Below are positions 1-9,410 of a DNA stretch of 64,000 nucleotides, piece after piece. The stretch covers positions 618,729-682,728 of the forward strand of contig CAVVDA010000005.1 of NCBI GenBank assembly GCA_963746875.1. The letters are read 5' to 3'. Origin of the DNA: Thermoanaerobaculia bacterium (lineage in GTDB: Bacteria > Acidobacteriota > Thermoanaerobaculia > UBA5066). The stretch's first letter is position 1, and every line of letters starts with the position of its first letter. Below the pieces are notes generated by a model. That model saw only the letters and a program-made list of their open reading frames with translations, did not search any database and was not told where the DNA came from. The translations under genes and the position numbers were made by a program.

Positions 1-1
1 C

Positions 2-2200
2 GTGACGATCGCGGGCCTGCCGCAGCGGATCGTCTCCTGGAGCCCCGACATCATCACACTCAACGTCACCAACACCGCACCGGTCATCGGGCAGCTCGTC
101 GTGAAGCGCGGCGACAACGGAAAATCCTCCGTCTCGGGCGTCAGCGTGACCGTCGGCGGCCCGGCACCCAAGGTGGTTGCGCCGGGAAGCACGATCCAGT
201 CGGTCATCGACTCCCCGGCCACCGCGGCGGGCGACCTCGTCATGGTTCCCTGCGGCCGGTACCCCGAGCTCCTCATCATGACGAAGCCCGTCAGGCTGCA
301 GGGGCAGGGCCCGGGCTGCACGACGATCGACGCCACCCGGAGCCCGAACGACAAGGTCCACAACTGGAACCTCAGGATGCAGGCCTTCATGGCCGACCCG
401 GCGAACGCCCGGTACGTGCTCCCCGGCCAGCCGACCGGCACGGGAGTTCCCGAGCCAACCCTGTTCGCAACGGAGCAGGGACCGGGGCTCATCGTCCTCG
501 GGCCGAGCGGCAACTTCAGCTCGAGCGACCCGATCGGGAGGAACGTCTACAGGCTCCTGAGCGGCTACCCGAACGCCCGCGTCGACGGCTTCACGTTCAC
601 GGGCGCCGACAACGCCGGGGCGATCTTCATAAACGGTTTCGCTCACCGCCTCCAGATCACGAACAACCACATTGTCGGGAACGCGGGCAATTTCGGCGGT
701 GGAATCCGCTCCGGATTCCCGACGCTCACCCAGACCGTCGGCACGGCGGACGCTTACGTCAACAGCTTCAACGACAACATGCTGATCGCCTACAACCAGA
801 TCACCGAGAACGGGGGCCTCGGCGGCGCGGGCGGAGGGATCTCGCTCTGCACCGGCTCGACCTCCTACAGCGTGACGAAGAACTGGATCTGCGGAAACTA
901 CACGAATGGCTCGGGCGGCGGCATCGGCCACCTCGGCTTCAGCAACAACGGGGTCATCGACCACAACACGATCATCTTCAACCAGACGTTCGACCAGTCC
1001 ACGACCCCGGGCGGCGGCGGCATCTTCGTCGGCGGCGAGGCCGCCATCGCGAACGCGGCCGGAATCACGATCAGCCCCGGGGCGGGGAACGTAACGATCA
1101 ACGCGAACCTGATCCAGGGGAACCTCGCGGGGGCTGGAGACGGCGGCGGAATCCGCGGCCAGTTCGTCAGCGGCGAGGACGTGTCGAGCTCCGGAGCCAA
1201 CTCGACGAACGGCTGGTCCCGGCTCGGAATCTACAACAACATCATCGCGAACAACGGAGCCGGCCTGGCGGGAGGCGGCATCTCTCTGCAGGACGTCGTG
1301 TTCCCGGACATTCTGGGCAACACGATCGCCGACAACGACTCGCTGGCCACGGCGGGCAGCGCCTTCCCGGCGGGGAGCCCAAATCAGTCGGACCCGCTGC
1401 CGGGCGGCGTCGCCTCGTACCGGCACACGGCCAACCTCATCGCGGTCTTTGCTTCCAAGGGCGCCGTCCTTCGCAGCCGGTACGGCATCTTCTCGAACCC
1501 GGGGCCGCTGCTCGCCCCGCCCCCGGTGCAGGGCAGAGCCCAGCCGACCTGGTTCGCGGACAACGTCATCTACGGGAACCGGTCGTTCTACGCCGTGATC
1601 GACCCCAACGCCCCCACGACCACGGCCAATTTCCTGCTCACGCCGGCGCCCGACGCCTTCGCGGGTCACCCCACGTGGTCCAAGGATCTCGCGGTGATCG
1701 GCACGGGCCCGACGGACTGCGGCGGCGCCGCATGCTTCCTCCACCCGGTCTACAGCCTGCTGACGAGCCTCACGGGCCCGTGGGCCCATTACGGCACGGG
1801 AGCGGACCACAACCGAACGGCCGCGAGCCAGACGGGTCTTTTCGCCTCCTGGTACCTCAACGGGTCGAGGAGCCCCCTCGCGCCGTACGACTTCACGACC
1901 GACATCCAGATGGCGCCGGCCTTCGACGAGGGAGGCAACTTCATCGACGTGAGGTTCGGGCCTCTGACGATCGACCCGACGTCCGGGCTGACCTTCACCC
2001 CCGGTCAGGGCTTCGCGAACTACTCGATTCTCGTAGGGACGCAGGCCGGGAACACCGGGTTCAACTTCAGCAATTCCTACGTCAACGCCGGCAACCCCAA
2101 CCCCTGGAACACCTGGCTCACGACCGACTTCTTCGGCAACGCGCGTCCTCATGCCGGTGCCGGAAACGTCCCGGATATCGGTTCGGTGGAGGTCCAGTGA
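2..2200 (+). CDS. Large secreted protein, 5'-truncated by the window: Ig/IPT-like segment, right-handed beta-helix repeats, choice-of-anchor-Q-like C-terminus
   Basis: Open from base 2. Gly/Asn-rich repeats (GGGIRSG, GGGISLC, GGGIFVG, GGGISLQ) typical of parallel beta-helix proteins. Ends TDFFGNARP...PDIGSVEVQ. The stop abuts the next gene (TGATG at 2198-2202). Confidence 0.72.
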   Translation: MTIAGLPQRIVSWSPDIITLNVTNTAPVIGQLVVKRGDNGKSSVSGVSVTVGGPAPKVVAPGSTIQSVIDSPATAAGDLVMVPCGRYPELLIMTKPVRLQGQGPGCTTIDATRSPNDKVHNWNLRMQAFMADPANARYVLPGQPTGTGVPEPTLFATEQGPGLIVLGPSGNFSSSDPIGRNVYRLLSGYPNARVDGFTFTGADNAGAIFINGFAHRLQITNNHIVGNAGNFGGGIRSGFPTLTQTVGTADAYVNSFNDNMLIAYNQITENGGLGGAGGGISLCTGSTSYSVTKNWICGNYTNGSGGGIGHLGFSNNGVIDHNTIIFNQTFDQSTTPGGGGIFVGGEAAIANAAGITISPGAGNVTINANLIQGNLAGAGDGGGIRGQFVSGEDVSSSGANSTNGWSRLGIYNNIIANNGAGLAGGGISLQDVVFPDILGNTIADNDSLATAGSAFPAGSPNQSDPLPGGVASYRHTANLIAVFASKGAVLRSRYGIFSNPGPLLAPPPVQGRAQPTWFADNVIYGNRSFYAVIDPNAPTTTANFLLTPAPDAFAGHPTWSKDLAVIGTGPTDCGGAACFLHPVYSLLTSLTGPWAHYGTGADHNRTAASQTGLFASWYLNGSRSPLAPYDFTTDIQMAPAFDEGGNFIDVRFGPLTIDPTSGLTFTPGQGFANYSILVGTQAGNTGFNFSNSYVNAGNPNPWNTWLTTDFFGNARPHAGAGNVPDIGSVEVQ

Positions 2201-2229: not shown

Positions 2230-3627
2230 ATGAAACTCCACAAATCGCCCTGGATCGCTCTTCTCGCTGGCTTCCTCTTGGGTCTTTCGATCGCGCGGCA
2301 CGCCGGGGCTGACGTCCACGTGCAATGCCGCGGCGACGTGGACGGAGACGGGATCCCGGACCAGTTCTTCAAGGTCTTCGCCGGACAAAGGACGGGCTGG
2401 GTCAACAACGCGGCCGGGACGGCGCGCTGCACCCCGACGAGCACGACCGGAGCTCCGTGCGTCCGCGTCACCGCGACCACGCCCGGGCGCCTCGTCAACA
2501 GCGCCTGGCGGAGCAACGTCAAGTGCATGCACATCACGTGCGGGGACGGCTACCAGACGATGGGCAACGGAACGCCCATCTACACGTTCGGCTTCCGCAA
2601 CGCGACGGGGCTCCCGCCGGCGAACGCCCTCGTCAACGCGTTCCTCGGGGCGGAGTGGCCCGCCCCGACCATCGCGATCGACGAGGGAGACGAGTTCTAC
2701 CTGACGTTGACGAACGTCAACCTCGCCGTCCGTCCGGACCTCTTCGATCCGCACTCGGTCCACTTTCACGGGTTTCCAAACGCCTCGTCCGTATTCGACG
2801 GAATGCCCGAGGGCTCCATCTCGGTCCTGGGTGGCAGCAGCCTGACCTACTACTACAAGATCGTCATCCCGGGCACCTACATGTACCACTGCCACGTCGA
2901 GGCGGCAGAGCACATGCAGATGGGAATGCTCGGCAATCTCTATGTCCGTCCGAAGCAGGACAAGGCCGCGGCGGGAACCGTTTTCGGAAGCCACATTCAT
3001 CAGAACGGCGACCTCTATGCGTACAACGACGGCGACGCTTCGACCTTCTGCAACAAGGAGATCCCGATCCAGGTCGGCTCGTTCGACCCGGTCTTCCACT
3101 TCGAGGATCAGTCCATCCAGCCGCCCGAGTTCTCGATCGAGGATCCGAAGTACGCCCAGCTGAACGGACGCGGGTACCCGGACACCGTTCACGCCGGTCC
3201 CCTCCCCTGGACGCCCCCGCAGGACAACTACGGGGGGCCGTTCCCGGTGCCCGACGACTACGTTCCGAAGACGTCTCAGAACATCGACACGGTGATCACG
3301 GCGACAGCGGGACAGAAGGTGCTTCTCCGGTTCTCGAGCCTGGATACCACGCGATTCTGGACGGTGACCGGGCTCGGCCTCCCGATGAAGGTGGTCGGCC
3401 TCGACGGGCGGCTGCTTCGGAGCACGCCCTACGGCGGCGGAGCGGGTCAGAACCTCGCCTACGACACGTCGTCCATCACGCTCGGGGGCGGCATGGCCGC
3501 GGACGTGCTGATCGACACGACGGGAGTCGCCCCCGGGACTTATTTCATCTACACGACGAACCTCAATTACCTCGCCAACGACGCGGAAGACTACGGCGGG
3601 ATGATGACCGAGTTCGTGGTGCAGTGA
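2230..3627 (+). CDS. Two-domain cupredoxin/multicopper oxidase subunit A (type-1 Cu site plus half of the trinuclear ligands)
   Basis: Sec-type signal MKLHKSPWIALLAGFLLGLSIARHAGA (alternative ATG at 2200). Domain 1 has PHSVHFHG and YMYHCHVEAAEHMQMGM. Domain 2 lacks His ligands (YFIYTTNLNYLANDAEDYGGM). Confidence 0.85.
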   Translation: MKLHKSPWIALLAGFLLGLSIARHAGADVHVQCRGDVDGDGIPDQFFKVFAGQRTGWVNNAAGTARCTPTSTTGAPCVRVTATTPGRLVNSAWRSNVKCMHITCGDGYQTMGNGTPIYTFGFRNATGLPPANALVNAFLGAEWPAPTIAIDEGDEFYLTLTNVNLAVRPDLFDPHSVHFHGFPNASSVFDGMPEGSISVLGGSSLTYYYKIVIPGTYMYHCHVEAAEHMQMGMLGNLYVRPKQDKAAAGTVFGSHIHQNGDLYAYNDGDASTFCNKEIPIQVGSFDPVFHFEDQSIQPPEFSIEDPKYAQLNGRGYPDTVHAGPLPWTPPQDNYGGPFPVPDDYVPKTSQNIDTVITATAGQKVLLRFSSLDTTRFWTVTGLGLPMKVVGLDGRLLRSTPYGGGAGQNLAYDTSSITLGGGMAADVLIDTTGVAPGTYFIYTTNLNYLANDAEDYGGMMTEFVVQ

Positions 3628-3638
3628 GGAGGCACGAG

Positions 3639-4983
3639 ATGAATCGACTTCAGCGCCTTTGCCTCCCGACGCTCGTCACGCTCTTCGTGTTGCTGCAGGC
3701 CCTTCCCGCTGCCGCCGTGATAGACGGAGTGACGGGAACTTCCTTTCACTTCACGGCGCGGGCCGGCCGGATCACGACCCCCGACGGCTCGAGCCTCCTC
3801 GTCTGGGGGTACGGCTGCACAGGAGTGCGGAACACAAGTCCAGTACCCGGGTGCGACCCTGATCCTGAACCAGGGCCAGACGGTGACGATCACCCTCACG
3901 AACGAGCTGACGACGCCCGATCCGGCGGCGCCCACGACGGGCACAGTCCCCGGGCCCAACGTCTCCCTCGTCTTCCCGGGCCAGGACAACGTCACGGCGA
4001 CGGGCGGCGTCGCGGGGAACGTGACCCAGGAAGCCCTGCCGGGCGGAGCGTCGGCCGTCACGTACACGTTCACCGCCAATCACCCGGGCACGTACCAATA
4101 CCACAGCGGGACGCGGGAGGACCTCGAGATCGAGATGGGGCTCGTGGGCGCCATCATCGTCCGGCCGACCGGCTTCGCCAACCGGGCCTACGCCCATCCG
4201 GCGACGGCGTTCGACCGGGAGTACCTCTTCCTCATCACGGAGATGGATCCGAACATCCACAACAACATCGACCTCGGCCGGATCGCCCTCGTCGACAACA
4301 CGGCCTTCGTCTCCACGTACTGGTTCTTCAACGGCCGGAACGCCCCCGACACGCTGGCCGAGCCCTACGTGCCGTGGATGCCGGCACAGCCGTACAACTG
4401 CGCGCCGCGGGTCCACCCGGGCGAGAAGATGCTGATCCGGACGGTGAGCGTCGGGCGGGAAATGCACCCCTTCCATCACCACGGGAACCACGCCCGCATC
4501 ATCGCGAAGGAGGGCCGCCTGCTCGAGAGCGCGCCCGGCGCCGGTCCGGATCTCTCTTATCTCGTCTACTCGATTCCGTCCATCCCGGGTGAGACGACGG
4601 ATGCGATCTGGGATTGGACGGGAGAGGGTCTCGGGTGGGACGCCTACGGACACACCACGAGCAGCGCGGCCACCCTCCAACCGGGAGAGTGCGTCTTCAA
4701 CGGCGCCGTCGATCTTGCCAATCCCCTTTGCGACCACGGCAAGGCGCTCCCGGTGACACTGCCTGACAATCTGGCCCTGATGCTCGGGGAGTTCTGGAGC
4801 GGCAGTCCCTATCTGGGGCAGCTCGGTTCCCTCCCGCCGGGCCAGGGACGCAACAATACGACCGGCGGGTACTTCTTCATGTGGCACTCGCACACGGAGA
4901 AGGAGATCGTGAACAACAACATTTTCCCGGGCGGAATGCTGACGATGTGCGTCGTCGAAGCTCCCGGCGTCGTCATCGAGTAA
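3639..4983 (+). CDS. Two-domain cupredoxin/multicopper oxidase subunit B (other half of the trinuclear ligands, no type-1 site); one frameshift near 3815-3838
   Basis: Signal MNRLQRLCLPTLVTLFVLLQALPAAA joins the frame VQYPGATLILNQGQTVTITLTNEL. Domain 1 is degenerate (NVSLVFPG, YQYHSGTREDLEIEMGL). Domain 2 has MHPFHHHGNH and FMWHSHTEKEIVNN. Confidence 0.8.
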
Positions 4984-4999
4984 GCGGAGGAGGTCGACG

Positions 5000-6976
5000 A
5001 TGAAAGTCAGAATCGCGCAAAGCGGGCCCCGCGGACTCCTCGGCCTCGCGGCGGCCGCTCTCCTCCTGGCCGTCGAGCCCGCCACGAGCGTCACGGTCAA
5101 CCTGACGGCCGGGCCGGTGACCGTGACGGTCGCCGGAAACCCGGTCCAGATGTGGGGATTCGGCCTGGACGCCAATCCCCCAACCGTCCCCGGACCTCCG
5201 ATCGTGGTGCCGCCCGGCGACACGTCGCTCACCATCAACCTGACGAACAACCTGCCCGAAGGGGTGTCGATCGTCATCCCGGGCCAGAACGCCACGATGA
5301 CACCGGTCTTCTTCTTCGACGCGGGCCTGCCAACCAACGGAATCGACCCCGCGACGCCTCCCCGCCGGCGCGTCAAGGCGTTCACGGCTGAAGCAGGCCC
5401 GACGGGCGGGACGCACACGTACACCTGGACAGGGCTCAGGCCCGGAACGTTCCTTTACGAGAGCGGCTCGCACCCCGGCGTCCAGGTCCAGATGGGTCTC
5501 CACGGCTCCGTGGCCGTCCAGCCGGCCGCCGGTCAGGTCTACCCTGGCGTGCCGTACGGCAAGGAGGTCGTCCTCGTCCTGAGCGAAGTCGATCCCGTGC
5601 TCGCGAACGCCGTGGCGAGCGGCCGCTACGGCCAGCCCGTGCCGGACCCGCTTCCGCCCGGGCTGACCGCGGCCGACTACCCGTCCAGCCCCATCAACTA
5701 CCGCCCGAGATATTTCCTCGTGAACGGCGCTCCGTATGCGCCCGGAAGCACAATTTCCACCGGCACGGGAGGCCTGCCTCTCCTCTCCAACGACGCCATT
5801 CTCGTCCGCTTCCTCAACGCCGGGCTCAGGACGCACTCGATGGCGCTCTTCGCCCCCACGCCGGCGGCCGGCGGGGTGCCGGCGACGTATTTCTCGATCC
5901 TCTCGGAGGACGGAAACCAGTACCAGCACCCCCGCCAGGCGTACTCGGTCTTCCTGCCCGCCAGCAAGACGGCCGACGCGATCGTCTCGCCCCCGGCGGC
6001 GGGAAGCTACGCTCTCCAGGACCGTACGCTCCACCTCACCAACGGCAACGCCGTGGGGGATGCCGGCCTGCAGGCAGTACTCTCGATCGGTGCAGGCACG
6101 GCGGCGCCCGTCGCGAACGACGACGCCTTCCGGACGGCCGTGAACACGCCCCTGTCGGTACCGGCTCCGGGCGTTCTTTCGAACGACACCGGCACGGGCC
6201 TGACGGTGAACTCCACGACGCCGGCCTCCCACGGCACAGCGGCCGTCAACGCGGACGGGTCATTCACGTACACGCCGACATCGGGCTTCTCGGGGATCGA
6301 CTCGTTCACGTATACGGCCTCCAACGGGACGACGAGCAACGTCGCGACGGTCACGCTCACCGTGAGCCTGCCGCCGGTCGCCGCGCCGAACACCTACAGC
6401 GTCGCCGGCGTGTTGAACGTGGCGGCCCCGGGGGTGCTCGGCAACGACACGAGCCCGGACCTGCTGCCCCTGAACGCTCTCCTCGTGACGGGCCCGACGA
6501 AGCTCGGAACCGGTTCCTTCACACTGAATCCGGACGGCTCCTTCTCGTATACAACGAGCAACACCACCGTGACGACCGACTCGTTCACGTACAGGGCTTG
6601 CGACGGGACGCTCTGCAGCACTCCCGCGACCGGCGCGACCGTGACCCTCAACCTGACCGGGCACCCGGCCCCGATCGCCAACGACGATACGTTCAGCGTG
6701 ACGATGAACTCCGTCAACAACTCTCTCGACGTTCTCGCGAACGACTTCGCGTTCGCTCCGGCGACGATCGTCCGGACGAACGTTCCCCCGAACAACCAGT
6801 CTCCGAGAATCATGAGCGCGCCGAGCCGGGGCGGCACCGTGCTGGTCCTTGCCAATGGCAATATCCGTTACACTCCGGCGCACGGCTTCACAGGCACGGA
6901 CGTCTTCACGTACAGGTTCCGGGACAGCATGAACGCGAACTCGAACACCGCCACGGTCAGGGTGAACGTCCAGTAA
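5000..6976 (+). CDS. Two-domain pseudo-cupredoxin subunit C with three C-terminal Ig-like (Big_9/cadherin-like) repeats
   Basis: Signal peptide. MCO-like scaffold (MWGFG...VPGPPIVV, LYESGSHPGVQVQMGLHG, YFLVNG) without HxH/HCH motifs. Repeats PVANDD.../GVLxND/GSFxYTP. Confidence 0.8.
   Translation: MKVRIAQSGPRGLLGLAAAALLLAVEPATSVTVNLTAGPVTVTVAGNPVQMWGFGLDANPPTVPGPPIVVPPGDTSLTINLTNNLPEGVSIVIPGQNATMTPVFFFDAGLPTNGIDPATPPRRRVKAFTAEAGPTGGTHTYTWTGLRPGTFLYESGSHPGVQVQMGLHGSVAVQPAAGQVYPGVPYGKEVVLVLSEVDPVLANAVASGRYGQPVPDPLPPGLTAADYPSSPINYRPRYFLVNGAPYAPGSTISTGTGGLPLLSNDAILVRFLNAGLRTHSMALFAPTPAAGGVPATYFSILSEDGNQYQHPRQAYSVFLPASKTADAIVSPPAAGSYALQDRTLHLTNGNAVGDAGLQAVLSIGAGTAAPVANDDAFRTAVNTPLSVPAPGVLSNDTGTGLTVNSTTPASHGTAAVNADGSFTYTPTSGFSGIDSFTYTASNGTTSNVATVTLTVSLPPVAAPNTYSVAGVLNVAAPGVLGNDTSPDLLPLNALLVTGPTKLGTGSFTLNPDGSFSYTTSNTTVTTDSFTYRACDGTLCSTPATGATVTLNLTGHPAPIANDDTFSVTMNSVNNSLDVLANDFAFAPATIVRTNVPPNNQSPRIMSAPSRGGTVLVLANGNIRYTPAHGFTGTDVFTYRFRDSMNANSNTATVRVNVQ
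6668..6976 (+). repeat. C-terminal Ig-like module, copy 1 (copy 2 at 9102-9410)
   Basis: 102-aa ungapped alignment with the protease C-terminus; 73/102 identical by manual count. Confidence 0.9.
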
Positions 6977-6989
6977 TGGAGAGACCGGG

Positions 6990-7451
6990 GTGACAAAAGC
7001 AATCCGACGGGGGGTGCCGCTCCTTCTCGGGGCGGCGCTCCTCGCCTCTTCCATGGGGGTCGCCGCCGCCGGGACGGAAACGGCGGCGACGCCCCGTGCG
7101 TCCGCCGCCGCATGCGACGATCTGAGGGACGTCTGGGGTGTCGAGATCGTCCGGCTCAACCTGACGGCGTACGGCCACATGGTCGACTTTCGTTTCCGTG
7201 TGCTCGATCCCGTCAAGGCGAAGCCGCTTCTCGAGCGGAGGGTCGACGCCCACCTCGTCGACCTGGCCACCGGGAAGGCGCTCGCCGTCCCCGACGCCCC
7301 GAAGACCGGGCGCCTGAGGAGCAAGGGAGTCCCGGAAGCCGGCCGGATCTATTTCGTCCTGTTCCAGAATCAGGGAGGTCTTCTCGAGAGGGGGGACAGG
7401 GTCTCCGTCGTCATCGGAGATTTCCGCGCCGAAGGCCTGACCGTCGAGTGA
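6990..7451 (+). CDS. Secreted hypothetical protein in the MCO operon
   Basis: GTG start with GGAGA upstream, signal peptide, compact domain (GHMVDFRFRVLDP, YFVLFQNQGG). Overlaps the next gene (GTGA at 7448-7451). Confidence 0.7.
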   Translation: MTKAIRRGVPLLLGAALLASSMGVAAAGTETAATPRASAAACDDLRDVWGVEIVRLNLTAYGHMVDFRFRVLDPVKAKPLLERRVDAHLVDLATGKALAVPDAPKTGRLRSKGVPEAGRIYFVLFQNQGGLLERGDRVSVVIGDFRAEGLTVE

Positions 7452-9410
7452 ACGCGGCGGGTCGATGCCGCACCCTCCTCGCGAGGGCGCTGGTCTTCCT
7501 GGTGCCCTTCGCGCCGGCCTCTGCCGGGGGCGTCGTCGATCCCGCCTTGCTGGCCGCGACGAGCCGAATGACACCGGGGCAGGAGGTCGCGGTCATCGTT
7601 TACCTCGCCGACCGCGTCTCCCTGTCCGCGTTCGCTCCCGGGGGAGCCGGCGAGAGAAACGCGTCGCCGGCGCTCGTCACGGCCCTGAAGAACAAAGCGC
7701 AGTCCACGCAGGGCCCCGTCTTCGCGAGCGCCGTGACCGCCGACGGCCGCGGTCTGGTCTCTCTCTGGGCAATCAACGCAATCGCCCTCAAGCTTCCCAA
7801 CGAGCACGTCCCGTCTCTGGCGCAGATCCCGGGCGTGGAAAGCGTCCGGCTGGACGCGGTGATTCAGGCGCCCGCGCCCTCCCCGGCCGCTTCACCCGGC
7901 AGCTCCCGAGTGGAACATCTCCATGCTGGGCGCGCCGGATCTCTGGGCGGCCGGGAGCACGGGGAGCGGCGTCGTCGTCGCGAGCCTCGATACCGGCGTC
8001 GACGCCCAGCACCCCGACCTTTCCACGCGGTGGCGGGGCGGCGCGAACAGCTGGTTCGACCCGAACGGAGAGCACGCCACCCCCGACGACGTGAGCGGCC
8101 ACGGGACGCAGGCGATGGGGCTCATCGTCGGCGGAGACGCCGGCGGATCCTCCATCGGGATGGCCCCCGGGGCGACGTGGATCGCCGCCAAGATCTTCAA
8201 CGACGCGGGCCAGGCGACCCTGAGCGGGATACACCAGGCGTTCCAGTGGGCGCTGGATCCGGACGGAAGCCCGGAGACGGTGGATTCCCCGCACGTCGTG
8301 AACAACTCGTGGGGCTTCCAGCCGACCGTCGGCACCTGCTGGACCGAGTTCGCGCACGACATTGCGATTCTCCGGGCGGCCGGCATCGCGGTCGTCTTCT
8401 CGGCCGGCAACGACGGTGGGGCCGCCAGCACCAGCGAGAGCCCCGCGAACAACGTGGGGTCGGTCTCCGTCGGCGCGGTCGACAGCTCGCGGAGCGTGGC
8501 CTCCTTCAGCAGCAGGGGCCCTTCGGCCTGCAACGGAAGCGTTTTCCCCAAATTGGCGGCCCCCGGCGTCTCGGTGAGGACCGCGGACCTGAGCTTCGGC
8601 GGGGCGGTCCCAAATCCCTATGCCGTGGTCAGCGGCACATCCTTCTCGGCCCCCCACGTCGCGGGCTCGATGGCGCTCCTCTGGAGCGCTCATCCGTCGA
8701 CGAACCTCGCCGCGATGGAGGCGATCCTCGAGTCGACCGCGGCCGACCTCGGGATCGCGGGACCGGACAACGACGCCGGCTACGGCCTCCCCGACCTCGT
8801 CGCCGCGAGCTTCGCGCTCCAGCCTCCAGTCGCCGCGAACGACGCTTACAGCGTGGAGCCCGGGGCCTCCCTCGACGTCCCGGCGCCCGGGGTCCTCGGA
8901 AACGACACGAGCCCCCAGGGACGGCCCCTGACGGCAATTCTCGGGAGATTCCCGGCGTCGGGAAGGCTGACGCTCCGTAGCAACGGGTCGTTTCTTTTCC
9001 TGGCGCCGCGCACCACCGGGACGATCACGTTCCTTTACTCAGCGAACGACGGGATTCTCCGGAGCACACCGGCGACGGTGACGATCAACGTCATTCACTC
9101 GGCACCGGTCGCAAACGACGACACGTTCACCGTCGCGGTGAACTCCCCGGGGACGCCCCTCGACGTCCTGGCCAACGACACGGTCACGGCCCCGGCGACG
9201 ATCGTGAAGACCAACTTTCCGCCCAACAACCCCTCTCCGAGGATCCTCAGTGCTCCGTCCATGGGCGGCACGGTGCTCGTCCTGGCCAACGGCATGGTCC
9301 GATACCGGCCGGCACCGGGCTTCCAGGGCACCGAGACCTTCAGGTACCGCTTCCGGGACAGCCTGAATGCCATGTCGAACTCTGCGACGGTCCATGTGAC
9401 CGTCCAGTAG
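7448..9410 (+). CDS. S8 subtilisin-like serine protease with prodomain and two Ig-like repeats; one frameshift near 7895-7915
   Basis: Catalytic motifs LDTGVD, GHGTQAMG and GTSFSAPHVAG, plus oxyanion FSAGND. Signal and prodomain are in the upstream frame. Confidence 0.9.
9102..9410 (+). repeat. C-terminal Ig-like module, copy 2 (copy 1 at 6668-6976)
   Basis: APVANDDTF...PPNNPSPRILSAPS.GGTVLVLANG...YRFRDS.NA.SN.ATV.V.VQ is shared with subunit C. Confidence 0.9.

What the first reader, a model, noticed from the sequence alone, without database searches (positions are those of the whole stretch)
2230..6976. Copper ligands of one laccase split across paralogs: candidate heterotrimeric two-domain multicopper oxidase with a single active site
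SEEN: three adjacent secreted two-cupredoxin-domain genes. A (2230-3627) has only domain-1 ligands, HSVHFH and HCHVEAAEHMQMGM, and a His-less domain 2. B (3639-4983) has only domain-2 ligands, HPFHHH and WHSH (Ser in place of the T1 Cys), and a degenerate domain 1. C (5000-6976) has neither set but carries Ig repeats. KNOWN: in type-C two-domain MCOs the T1 site is in domain 1. The trinuclear cluster forms between chains, from 4 His of domain 1 and 4 His of the neighbouring domain 2, in a homotrimer. Six-domain MCOs such as ceruloplasmin keep a single cluster in a pseudo-trimer. INFERENCE: no subunit is a complete oxidase, but A domain 1 plus B domain 2 supply exactly 8 cluster His and one T1 site. 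C would close the ring and tether it. That would be a split, ceruloplasmin-like heteromer that annotation pipelines would call three separate MCOs.
Basis: partly seen in the sequence, partly recalled or inferred. Interest (0 to 1): 0.85.

Follow-up and report, generated by a model that had tools for sequence, protein, structure and literature searches.

The report
Three-gene split multicopper oxidase complex
Three neighbouring, related genes each encode a two-domain copper-oxidase-like protein; the copper ligands needed for one working oxidase are divided between two of them and the third has none, so the enzyme can probably only work as a mixed three-protein ring, an arrangement kept in hundreds of bacterial species that I did not find described.

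Summary
A (2230-3627) carries a complete type-1 copper site plus four cluster histidines in domain 1. B carries only the four partner histidines, in domain 2. C (5000-6976) has neither set and ends in three Ig-like repeats.

B is not one open frame here: a single extra base near 3815-3835 splits it. The peptidase gene is split too. Because gyrA, rpoC and an RND pump gene are also split, assembly indel errors are the likely cause.

Across about 160 related loci from at least eight phyla:
- The gene order giant protein-A-B-C-small protein-S8 peptidase is nearly invariant.
- The 4+4 histidine split is kept in every sequence.

AlphaFold2 on natural stop-codon read-through fusions of a homologous locus gave one confident compact assembly (pTM 0.85 for A-B-C, 0.86 for A-B). 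Structure searches fit A domain 1 lying against B domain 2 like laccase domains 1 and 3. They do not fit a ring in gene order.

Best reading: an obligate heteromeric, ceruloplasmin-like oxidase with a single active site. I found no description of it in the searchable literature. It is a new variant of a known kind. The substrate is unknown.

The parts
1..2200 (+). C-terminal 732 aa of the giant secreted protein G (about 1830 aa; it starts 3292 nt upstream of the window). It has SdrD_B/CarboxypepD_reg-like Ig folds and a weak beta-helix match.
   Evidence: One-frame tblastn match to the 1839-aa G of L090 at 79% identity. Pfam results. A G homolog lies upstream of A in 124/126 loci. True G-A fusions occur in L043, L073 and L144.
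2230..3627 (+). Subunit A: a two-cupredoxin protein. Domain 1 carries the T1 site and 4 cluster His. Domain 2 has no ligands.
   Evidence: Pfam Cu-oxidase_3 at 47.7 bits. Best PDB sequence match is 3G5W domain 1. More than 4598 homologs.
2752..2772 (+). A motif HSVHFHG: H175 (T1 ligand), H178 and H180 (cluster ligands).
   Evidence: Aligns to HTIHWHG of 3G5W. Invariant in 76/76 homologs.
2887..2928 (+). A motif HCHVEAAEHMQMGM: H220 and H222 (cluster), C221, H228 and M233 (T1).
   Evidence: Aligns to YHCHVNVNEHVTMRGM of 3G5W. Invariant in 76/76 homologs.
3639..4983 (+). Subunit B: domain 1 has no ligands and domain 2 carries 4 cluster His. In this assembly one extra base near 3815-3835 splits it over two frames.
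   Evidence: The homologs are intact proteins of 430-470 aa.
4465..4485 (+). B motif HPFHHHG. The 2nd and 4th His are the HxH pair for the cluster.
   Evidence: The B-family profile aligns it to VHAIHTHG of 3G5W domain 2. Invariant in 78/78 homologs.
4879..4905 (+). B motif MWHSHTEKE: the second HxH pair for the cluster. The Ser and both Glu are invariant.
   Evidence: Aligns to MIHDH of 3G5W domain 2. Invariant in 73/73 homologs.
5000..6976 (+). Subunit C: a ligand-free two-cupredoxin part (to about 6100) followed by three Big_9 Ig-like repeats (about 6104-6976).
   Evidence: Pfam. The T1 loop is degenerate: PGTFLYESGSHPGVQVQMGLHG against A's PGTYMYHCHVEAAEHMQMGMLG. C follows B in 118/119 loci. 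It is the fastest-evolving of the three.
6990..7451 (+). Small conserved protein S (153 aa, signal peptide or lipoprotein-like, no known family).
   Evidence: No Pfam or NCBIfam match. Present in 87/91 loci with enough flank.
7560..9410 (+). S8 subtilase P with a propeptide and two C-terminal Big_9 repeats. It is split over two frames near 7865-7905 in this assembly.
   Evidence: Pfam. tblastn places L089 P residues 4-102 in frame 2 and residues 127-625 in frame 3. Present in 81/91 loci. Its last 202 aa are 61% identical to the end of C.

Best explanation
A, B and C are paralogous subunits of one secreted heteromeric multicopper oxidase. It is built like a homotrimeric two-domain MCO or the six-domain ring of ceruloplasmin, but with only one active site.

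Proposed mechanism (inferred from standard MCO chemistry):
- A one-electron donor reduces the single type-1 copper in A domain 1 (H175, C221, H228, M233).
- The electron passes through the His220-Cys221-His222 bridge to a trinuclear copper cluster. That cluster is held by four His of A domain 1 (H178, H180, H220, H222) and four His of B domain 2 (two HxH pairs).
- O2 is reduced to water at that cluster.
- C, which has no ligands, fills the third position of the ring. Through its Ig-like repeats it probably links the enzyme to other parts of the system.

The likely accessory parts are the giant protein G (fused to A in some species), the small protein S, the S8 peptidase and, in about 40% of loci, a SCO1/SenC copper chaperone with a monoheme cytochrome c. 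I take these to be scaffold, maturation and copper-loading or electron-donor components.

Shown: the ligand split, its invariance, the synteny, and the predicted compact A-B-C assembly.
Inferred: the composite cluster, the ring order B-A-C, and the roles of C, G, S and P.
Unknown: the substrate. My guess is a reduced metal ion or the co-clustered cytochrome c.

The frameshifts in B and P in this window are most likely assembly errors.
For: 1. Neither A nor B has 8 cluster His alone. Together they have exactly 8 plus one T1 site.
2. These columns are invariant in 76 A and 73-78 B homologs from Pseudomonadota, Desulfobacterota, Myxococcota, Bdellovibrionota, Nitrospirota, Acidobacteriota, Krumholzibacteriia and Hydrogenedentes. 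C never has them.
3. The motifs align to the ligand motifs of domain 1 and domain 2 of the type-C 2dMCO 3G5W.
4. Gene order G-A-B-C-S-P: B follows A in 141/142 loci, C follows in 118/119, and G is upstream in 124/126.
5. AlphaFold2 on the natural A-stop-B-stop-C read-through of L048 used 80 rows, including 11 A-B-C, 23 A-B and 26 B-C natural read-throughs. It gave pTM 0.85 and pLDDT 84.6, with only the two linkers and one B loop disordered. A-B alone gave pTM 0.86 and pLDDT 87.3.
6. Foldseek: the best hits of the A-B-C model are six-domain MCOs (factor V/VIII, ceruloplasmin, MnxG) at E 1e-46 to 1e-39. TM is only 0.20-0.24 over the full length, so the ring is not in gene order.
7. Foldseek: the three-domain laccase 2XU9/6W2K fits with TMt 0.68-0.70 over 809-812 columns, nearly the whole 831-aa A-B model. 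That span requires A-D1 and B-D2 to sit like laccase D1 and D3, the cluster interface.
8. The conservation gradient A-D1 (0.71) > B (about 0.60) > C (0.46-0.49) fits catalytic versus structural roles.
9. True G-A fusions without a signal peptide exist in L043, L073 and L144.
10. Assembly errors: gyrA, rpoC and an RND pump gene are also split between frames. Completeness is 54% although the genome size is normal for the genus.
Against: - There are no experimental data and no multimer tool. The interface is inferred from alignment span and TM scores only.
- AlphaFold2 has seen trimeric and six-domain MCOs, and may pack any three two-cupredoxin paralogs into a ring.
- The covalent linkers are artificial.
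- The models are of a homolog (L048; its A is about 55% identical to the window's A over residues 96-465), not of the window's own proteins.
- Stoichiometry (1:1:1) is assumed.
A dead copy in this strain therefore cannot be excluded.
- The cluster is absent from 18 same-genus genomes, so it is dispensable for the lineage.
Confidence: 0.75

Rival explanations
1. A-B heterodimer or another A/B oligomer is the enzyme. C is not part of the catalytic ring. It is a separate surface or adhesin-like protein that merely shares ancestry and an operon.
For: C evolves fastest and has only 8-13% highly conserved columns. The A-B model is as confident without C (pTM 0.86), and one B loop is better ordered without C. 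L057 lacks C next to B.
Against: C follows B in 118/119 loci and keeps two cupredoxin domains. The A-B-C model keeps pTM at 0.85 with C at pLDDT above 90 over most of its length, which needs a confident placement of C. A four-domain open arc is unknown among MCOs (my own knowledge).
Confidence: 0.12
2. A and B work apart. A would be a blue-copper electron carrier and B a copper-binding or storage protein, with no shared trinuclear cluster.
For: No direct evidence for contact. Each protein has its own signal peptide.
Against: Four cluster-type His are invariant in each protein although useless alone. These include the His-Cys-His bridge of A, whose flanking His have no role in a plain cupredoxin. 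The two genes are strictly adjacent in 141/142 loci. Models pack them together.
Confidence: 0.06
3. In this particular genome the cluster is a decaying, non-functional copy. The frameshifts in B and in the peptidase would be real mutations in a recently acquired accessory island.
For: Two of the six genes are split. The cluster is absent from 18 congeners and 12 same-order genomes, so it is dispensable.
Against: Essential genes gyrA and rpoC, and an RND pump gene, are also split. Completeness is 54% at a genome size normal for the genus. Apart from one base each, the split genes are about 80% identical to intact relatives with no stops. A related long-contig assembly (L091) shows different indels in the same genes.
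Confidence: 0.1
4. The composite site does chemistry other than O2 reduction coupled to substrate oxidation, for example nitrite-reductase-like or hydroxylamine/NO chemistry as in some archaeal two-domain MCO/NirK relatives.
For: Copper nitrite reductases are among the best sequence matches of A and B domain 1. Many hosts are denitrifiers or sulfur oxidisers.
Against: NirK has a His-Cys pair and 3 His at a mononuclear T2 site (my own knowledge). Here the full HCH plus 8 His pattern of a trinuclear cluster is invariant, and the best fold matches are oxidases.
Confidence: 0.05

Closest known systems
Type-C two-domain multicopper oxidases (Nitrosomonas europaea blue copper oxidase, PDB 3G5W; metagenomic mgLAC, 2ZWN)
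   Same: Two cupredoxin domains per chain, with T1 copper in domain 1. The trinuclear cluster forms between domain 1 of one chain and domain 2 of the next. These are the best sequence matches for A domain 1 and B domain 2, and the ligand motifs align.
   Different: The known enzymes are homotrimers in which every chain carries both ligand sets, giving three active sites. Here the sets lie on different paralogs and a third paralog has none, so at most one site forms. Identity is low (E 1e-13 to 1e-16). A has a conserved N-terminal extension with a Cys pair, and B has an insertion of about 90 aa in domain 2.
Six-domain multicopper oxidases (ceruloplasmin; MnxG of the Bacillus Mnx complex, 9BXA; factor V/VIII fold)
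   Same: Six cupredoxin domains and a single trinuclear cluster at one of the three equivalent interfaces. These are the top Foldseek hits for the A-B-C model.
   Different: Those are single chains and keep several T1 sites. Here there are three separate chains and one T1 site. The inferred spatial order (B-A-C) differs from gene order, so the global TM is only 0.2.
Three-domain laccases (e.g. Thermus thermophilus laccase, 2XU9)
   Same: One T1 site and one cluster between a T1-bearing domain and a T1-free domain. B's HxHG and WHSH motifs resemble the domain-1 motifs of these enzymes. 2XU9 fits the A-B model at TMt 0.68-0.70.
   Different: Those are single polypeptides with three domains.
Iodide oxidase IoxA/IoxC of Iodidimonas
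   Same: A bacterial MCO that purifies with a second protein from the same cluster and has SCO1/SenC genes beside it (PMC9415286).
   Different: IoxA alone carries all four copper-binding regions, so the ligands are not split.

Membership tests
Multicopper oxidase superfamily | Cupredoxin-type Cu-oxidase domains | tested here: met
   Pfam Cu-oxidase_3/2 hits above the gathering score for A (47.7 bits), B (39.7 bits) and C (24.6 bits against a cut-off of 21). The models are all-beta two-domain folds.
Multicopper oxidase superfamily | One T1 site (His, Cys, His, plus or minus Met) linked by His-Cys-His to the cluster | tested here: met
   Present in A domain 1 only: H175, C221, H228, M233 and H220-C221-H222. 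Invariant in 76/76 homologs.
Multicopper oxidase superfamily | Eight His in four HxH motifs for the trinuclear cluster within the functional unit | tested here: inconclusive
   Not met by any single chain. Met exactly by A-D1 (2 HxH) plus B-D2 (2 HxH). Whether they converge in space could not be inspected.
Type-C two-domain MCO (homotrimer) | T1 copper in domain 1 of a two-domain chain | tested here: met
   True for A.
Type-C two-domain MCO (homotrimer) | Each chain carries both the domain-1 and the domain-2 cluster ligands, so a homotrimer is active | tested here: not met
   A lacks the domain-2 set, B lacks the domain-1 set and the T1 site, and C lacks all. This holds in all homologs examined.
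Six-domain MCO (ceruloplasmin type) | Six cupredoxin domains in one polypeptide | tested here: not met
   Three separate genes, each with its own signal peptide and stop codon. No A-B or B-C fusion was seen in about 160 loci.
Six-domain MCO (ceruloplasmin type) | A single trinuclear cluster at one of three pseudo-equivalent interfaces | tested here: inconclusive
   Predicted from the ligand distribution and the models. No metal data.
Copper nitrite reductase (NirK) | Mononuclear T2 site with 3 His, and a His-Cys (not His-Cys-His) link | tested here: not met
   HCH and 8 His are conserved.

The most novel reading that the evidence does not exclude
This is an obligate heterotrimeric multicopper oxidase. 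Gene triplication followed by complementary ligand loss has reduced three active sites to one. It would be a living intermediate between homotrimeric two-domain oxidases and single-site six-domain oxidases such as ceruloplasmin. It belongs to a conserved, horizontally spread six-to-eight-gene secreted apparatus (giant scaffold, peptidase, small protein, SCO1/cytochrome c) present in at least 442 bacterial species, and its substrate and physiological role are entirely unknown.
Probability: 0.6. Interest if true: 0.85.

Novelty: new variant of a known kind. Interest (0 to 1): 0.75.

Why it matters
- Evolution: all characterised two-domain MCOs are homotrimers. The step from these (three clusters) to six-domain, single-cluster enzymes has so far only been inferred. 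A heteromer with subfunctionalised paralogs would make that step observable and testable.
- Annotation: pipelines call A, B and C three independent 'multicopper oxidase domain-containing proteins'. Expressing any one of them alone would give inactive protein.
- Ecology: the system is widespread in sediment, groundwater, sulfur-oxidising, sulfate-reducing and metal-cycling bacteria, including strict anaerobes. An extracellular O2-reducing or metal-oxidising enzyme of unknown substrate there is relevant.
- Enzyme design: an asymmetric ring with one active site and two 'silent' interfaces is a natural template.

Tried and rejected
- First paired alignment (A3): MAFFT stacked unpaired B and C rows onto A. 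I discarded it and rebuilt it with natural read-through rows only plus A rows (A4, A6), checking the register.
- Iodide oxidase IoxA/IoxC as a precedent: rejected, because IoxA holds all four motifs.
- The alpha-alpha-alpha' 'heterotrimer' of Nmar_1354 is one gene product with or without an extra domain, not a ligand split.
- Gene-order ring A-B-C (ceruloplasmin-like in sequence order): rejected by TM 0.20-0.28 despite full-length alignment.
- Programmed frameshift in B: rejected. Close relatives read straight through, and I saw no slippery site by eye in the sequence around the extra base.
- Cus-type RND pump, ECF sigma factor, PMT_2/TPR protein and DUF481 as parts of the system: none is conserved near the cluster in other loci.
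- Literature searches for a heteromeric or split MCO found nothing. Only open-access papers and bioRxiv were searchable.
Full report
**1. What is in the window**

The region holds six same-strand genes.
- G is a giant secreted protein of about 1830 aa. It starts 3292 nt upstream of the window and ends at 2200. It matches the 1839-aa G of L090 in a single frame at 79% identity.
- A spans 2230-3627 (465 aa).
- B spans 3639-4983.
- C spans 5000-6976 (658 aa).
- S is a 153-aa protein with no known family (6990-7451).
- P is an S8 subtilase with two Big_9 repeats (about 7560-9410).

A, B and C all score above Pfam's thresholds for multicopper-oxidase cupredoxin domains, and C adds three Big_9 repeats. 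All three start with Sec-type signal peptides, judged by eye.

**2. The ligand pattern**

A domain 1 has HSVHFHG (residues 175-181) and HCHVEAAEHMQMGM (220-233). These align residue for residue with HTIHWHG and YHCHVNVNEHVTMRGM of domain 1 of the type-C two-domain oxidase 3G5W, which is A's best PDB match at E 1.8e-13. That gives a complete T1 site (H175, C221, H228, M233) plus four cluster His (H178, H180, H220, H222). A domain 2 has no HxH pair.

B domain 1 has lost the ligands (YQYHSGT). B domain 2 has HPFHHHG and MWHSH. A profile of 25 B homologs aligns these to VHAIHTHG and MIHDH of 3G5W domain 2.

C's equivalent of the T1 loop reads PGTFLYESGSHPGVQVQMGLHG, and C has neither set.

**3.

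3639-4983 is 1345 nt. The first 71 residues or so of B lie in one frame and the rest in another. Alignment with the closest relatives shows one extra base in the window within GGCTGCACAGGAGTGCGG. Those relatives are L089/L090, which are 82% identical and have an intact 451-aa B, and L091.

The peptidase P is split as well: residues 4-102 are in one frame and 127-625 in another.

- gyrA is split between two frames.
- rpoC is split.
- A CusA-like RND pump gene 10 kb upstream is split at profile positions 624/645.
- secA is intact.
- The genome has 4.1 Mb in 6 contigs, normal for its genus, but scores only 54% complete.

This is the signature of an indel-prone long-read assembly. The frameshifts are most likely artefacts (my estimate is about 0.85-0.9), but this is not proven.

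**4. Comparative evidence**

A's family is large: more than 4598 proteins at E ≤ 0.001 among the 8000 candidates scored, with the top 120 at least 48% identical. A scan of one genome per species found relatives in 442 stretches. I analysed the 80 best of these plus 80 metagenome loci. ORFs were classified with HMMs built from four seed loci.

Synteny counts:

| Relation | Loci |
|---|---|
| B directly follows A | 141/142 |
| C follows B | 118/119 |
| S present | 87/91 |
| P present | 81/91 |
| G upstream of A | 124/126 |

The one 'missing B' (L079) does have B.

Hosts span Pseudomonadota, Desulfobacterota, Myxococcota, Bdellovibrionota, Nitrospirota, Acidobacteriota, Krumholzibacteriia and Hydrogenedentes. 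They include the isolates Desulfatiglans anilini, Desulfosarcina cetonica and Amphritea pacifica.

Ligand columns:
- The eight A ligand positions are invariant in 76/76 homologs.
- The B positions HxxHxH are invariant in 78/78 and HSH in 73/73 homologs.
- B domain 1 and all of C lack them throughout.

Mean pairwise identity falls from A-D1 (0.71) through B (about 0.60) to C (0.46-0.49). This fits catalytic, co-catalytic and structural roles.

**5. Structure prediction**

No multimer tool was available, so I used a natural workaround. In about a third of loci A and B (and in about a ninth A, B and C) share a reading frame. Reading the stop codons as Gly then gives locus-encoded 'fusions' in which the next signal peptide acts as the linker.

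I aligned 11 A-B-C, 23 A-B and 26 B-C read-throughs plus 20 A rows and checked the register. AlphaFold2 results for L048:

| Model | Length | pTM | Mean pLDDT | Disordered (pLDDT < 50) |
|---|---|---|---|---|
| A-B-C | 1186 aa | 0.85 | 84.6 | the two linkers and one B loop |
| A-B | 831 aa | 0.86 | 87.3 | the linker and a short A loop (314-318) |

A pTM this high for separate proteins joined by disordered linkers means their mutual placement is confidently predicted.

Foldseek results:
- The A-B-C model hits the six-domain MCO fold first (factor V/VIII, ceruloplasmin, MnxG) at E 1e-46 to 1e-39 over about 1300 columns. TM is only 0.20-0.24.
- A-B against ceruloplasmin gives TMq 0.25-0.28. A ring in gene order (A2|B1, B2|C1, C2|A1) would superpose well, so that order is rejected.
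- The 439-aa three-domain laccase 2XU9/6W2K fits at TMt 0.68-0.70 with alignments of 809-812 columns in both models.

In the 831-aa A-B model such a span can only run from A domain 1 to B domain 2. A TMt near 0.7 needs the laccase's D1 and D3 (the cluster interface) to land on those two domains at once.

I therefore infer the ring order B→A→C, with A-D1 against B-D2. This remains an inference. AlphaFold2 may also be biased by known MCO rings.

**6. The wider system**

- In L043, L073 and L144 A is fused, without a signal peptide, to the C-terminus of a G-like protein. This argues that the oxidase is attached to the giant protein.
- The last 202 aa of C and P (two Big_9 repeats) are 61% identical. 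This suggests a common docking partner.
- A SCO1/SenC gene followed by a monoheme cytochrome c gene lies directly before G or after P in 21 and 19 of the 52 long loci, respectively. In this genome the pair lies just upstream of G. These are candidates for copper loading and electron donation.
- The Cus-like pump, ECF sigma factor, PMT_2/TPR protein and DUF481 near the window's cluster are not conserved elsewhere.
- None of 18 same-genus and 12 same-order genomes has B. No GC anomaly or tRNA flanks the cluster. It is therefore a patchy accessory cluster, probably spread horizontally.

**7. Comparison with what is known, and novelty**

It works like a two-domain MCO trimer or ceruloplasmin. It fails the defining feature of type-C 2dMCOs, that both ligand sets lie in each chain. 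It also fails the defining feature of six-domain MCOs, a single chain.

Literature searches found no heteromeric or split-ligand MCO.
- Iox differs because IoxA is complete.
- Mnx has a complete six-domain MnxG.
- Nmar_1354 'heterotrimers' are one gene product.

Four earlier follow-ups in this scan reached the same reading on homologous clusters in other genomes. These are not independent evidence. Here I re-derived the claims and added the read-through models, the ring-order inference, the G-A fusions, the SCO1/cytochrome c link and the frameshift assessment.

**8. Verdict**

- The substrate is unknown.
- It is a new variant of a known kind, and interest is high.

Noticed in passing
window 3805-3845 and 7865-7905; G000:C1:439613-441815; G000:C6:768993-770410; L174:5939-8853: B, the S8 peptidase, gyrA, rpoC and a CusA-like RND pump gene are each split between two reading frames. 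The genome scores 54% complete at a size normal for its genus. The assembly looks indel-prone, so gene calls from it need care.
   Followed up: partly
window 6368-6973 vs 8802-9407: The C-terminal pair of Big_9 repeats of subunit C and of the peptidase are 61% identical over 202 aa. That is far more than either is to other repeats. It suggests a shared docking module or recent gene conversion.
   Followed up: partly
L043:3458-11098, L073:1302-8543, L144:1-5382: In some Gammaproteobacteria subunit A is fused in frame, without its signal peptide, to the C-terminus of the giant upstream protein. This is a natural 'Rosetta stone' linking the oxidase to that scaffold.
   Followed up: partly
L174:10860-12965 (just upstream of G in G000); e.g. 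L005:15230-17224: A SCO1/SenC gene followed by a gene for a monoheme cytochrome c (one CxxCH) fused to a domain of about 430 aa flanks the cluster in about 40% of long loci. It lies either before G or after the peptidase.
   Followed up: partly
window 6990-7451: A small secreted or lipoprotein-like protein of 145-200 aa with no family assignment is conserved right after C in 87/91 loci. It has a conserved WGI...G.M.DFR.RV.D..KA.PL core. Its function is unknown.
   Followed up: no
window 2320-2532 (A residues 31-101): A has a conserved N-terminal extension: VQCPGD.(N/D)GD, and further on KCMH. Cys98 is invariant (76/76), and Cys32 is present in all 72 sequences that cover that column; His100 is nearly invariant (73/76) (numbering; Cys99, Cys33 and His101 in the window protein). 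The window and its closest relatives carry an extra insertion of about 50 aa between the two Cys. This could be a disulfide or an additional metal or calcium site.
   Followed up: no
window about 4690-4745; L048 model residues 705-794: B domain 2 has an insertion of about 90 aa, with a Cys pair and an acidic GDGFDD-like stretch in many homologs, followed by an invariant DHGKP. Part of it (residues 767-792) is poorly predicted in the A-B-C model (pLDDT < 50) but confident (83-91) in the A-B model.
   Followed up: no
G001-G030: None of 18 same-genus and 12 same-order genomes carries the cluster, although it is found in at least eight phyla. This is a patchy distribution typical of horizontal spread.
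   Followed up: partly
L091:4304-7081: A related ENA contig has A and B broken by different indels (A as 362 + 111 aa; a 2-nt insertion in B). This is another error-prone assembly of the same cluster.
   Followed up: no
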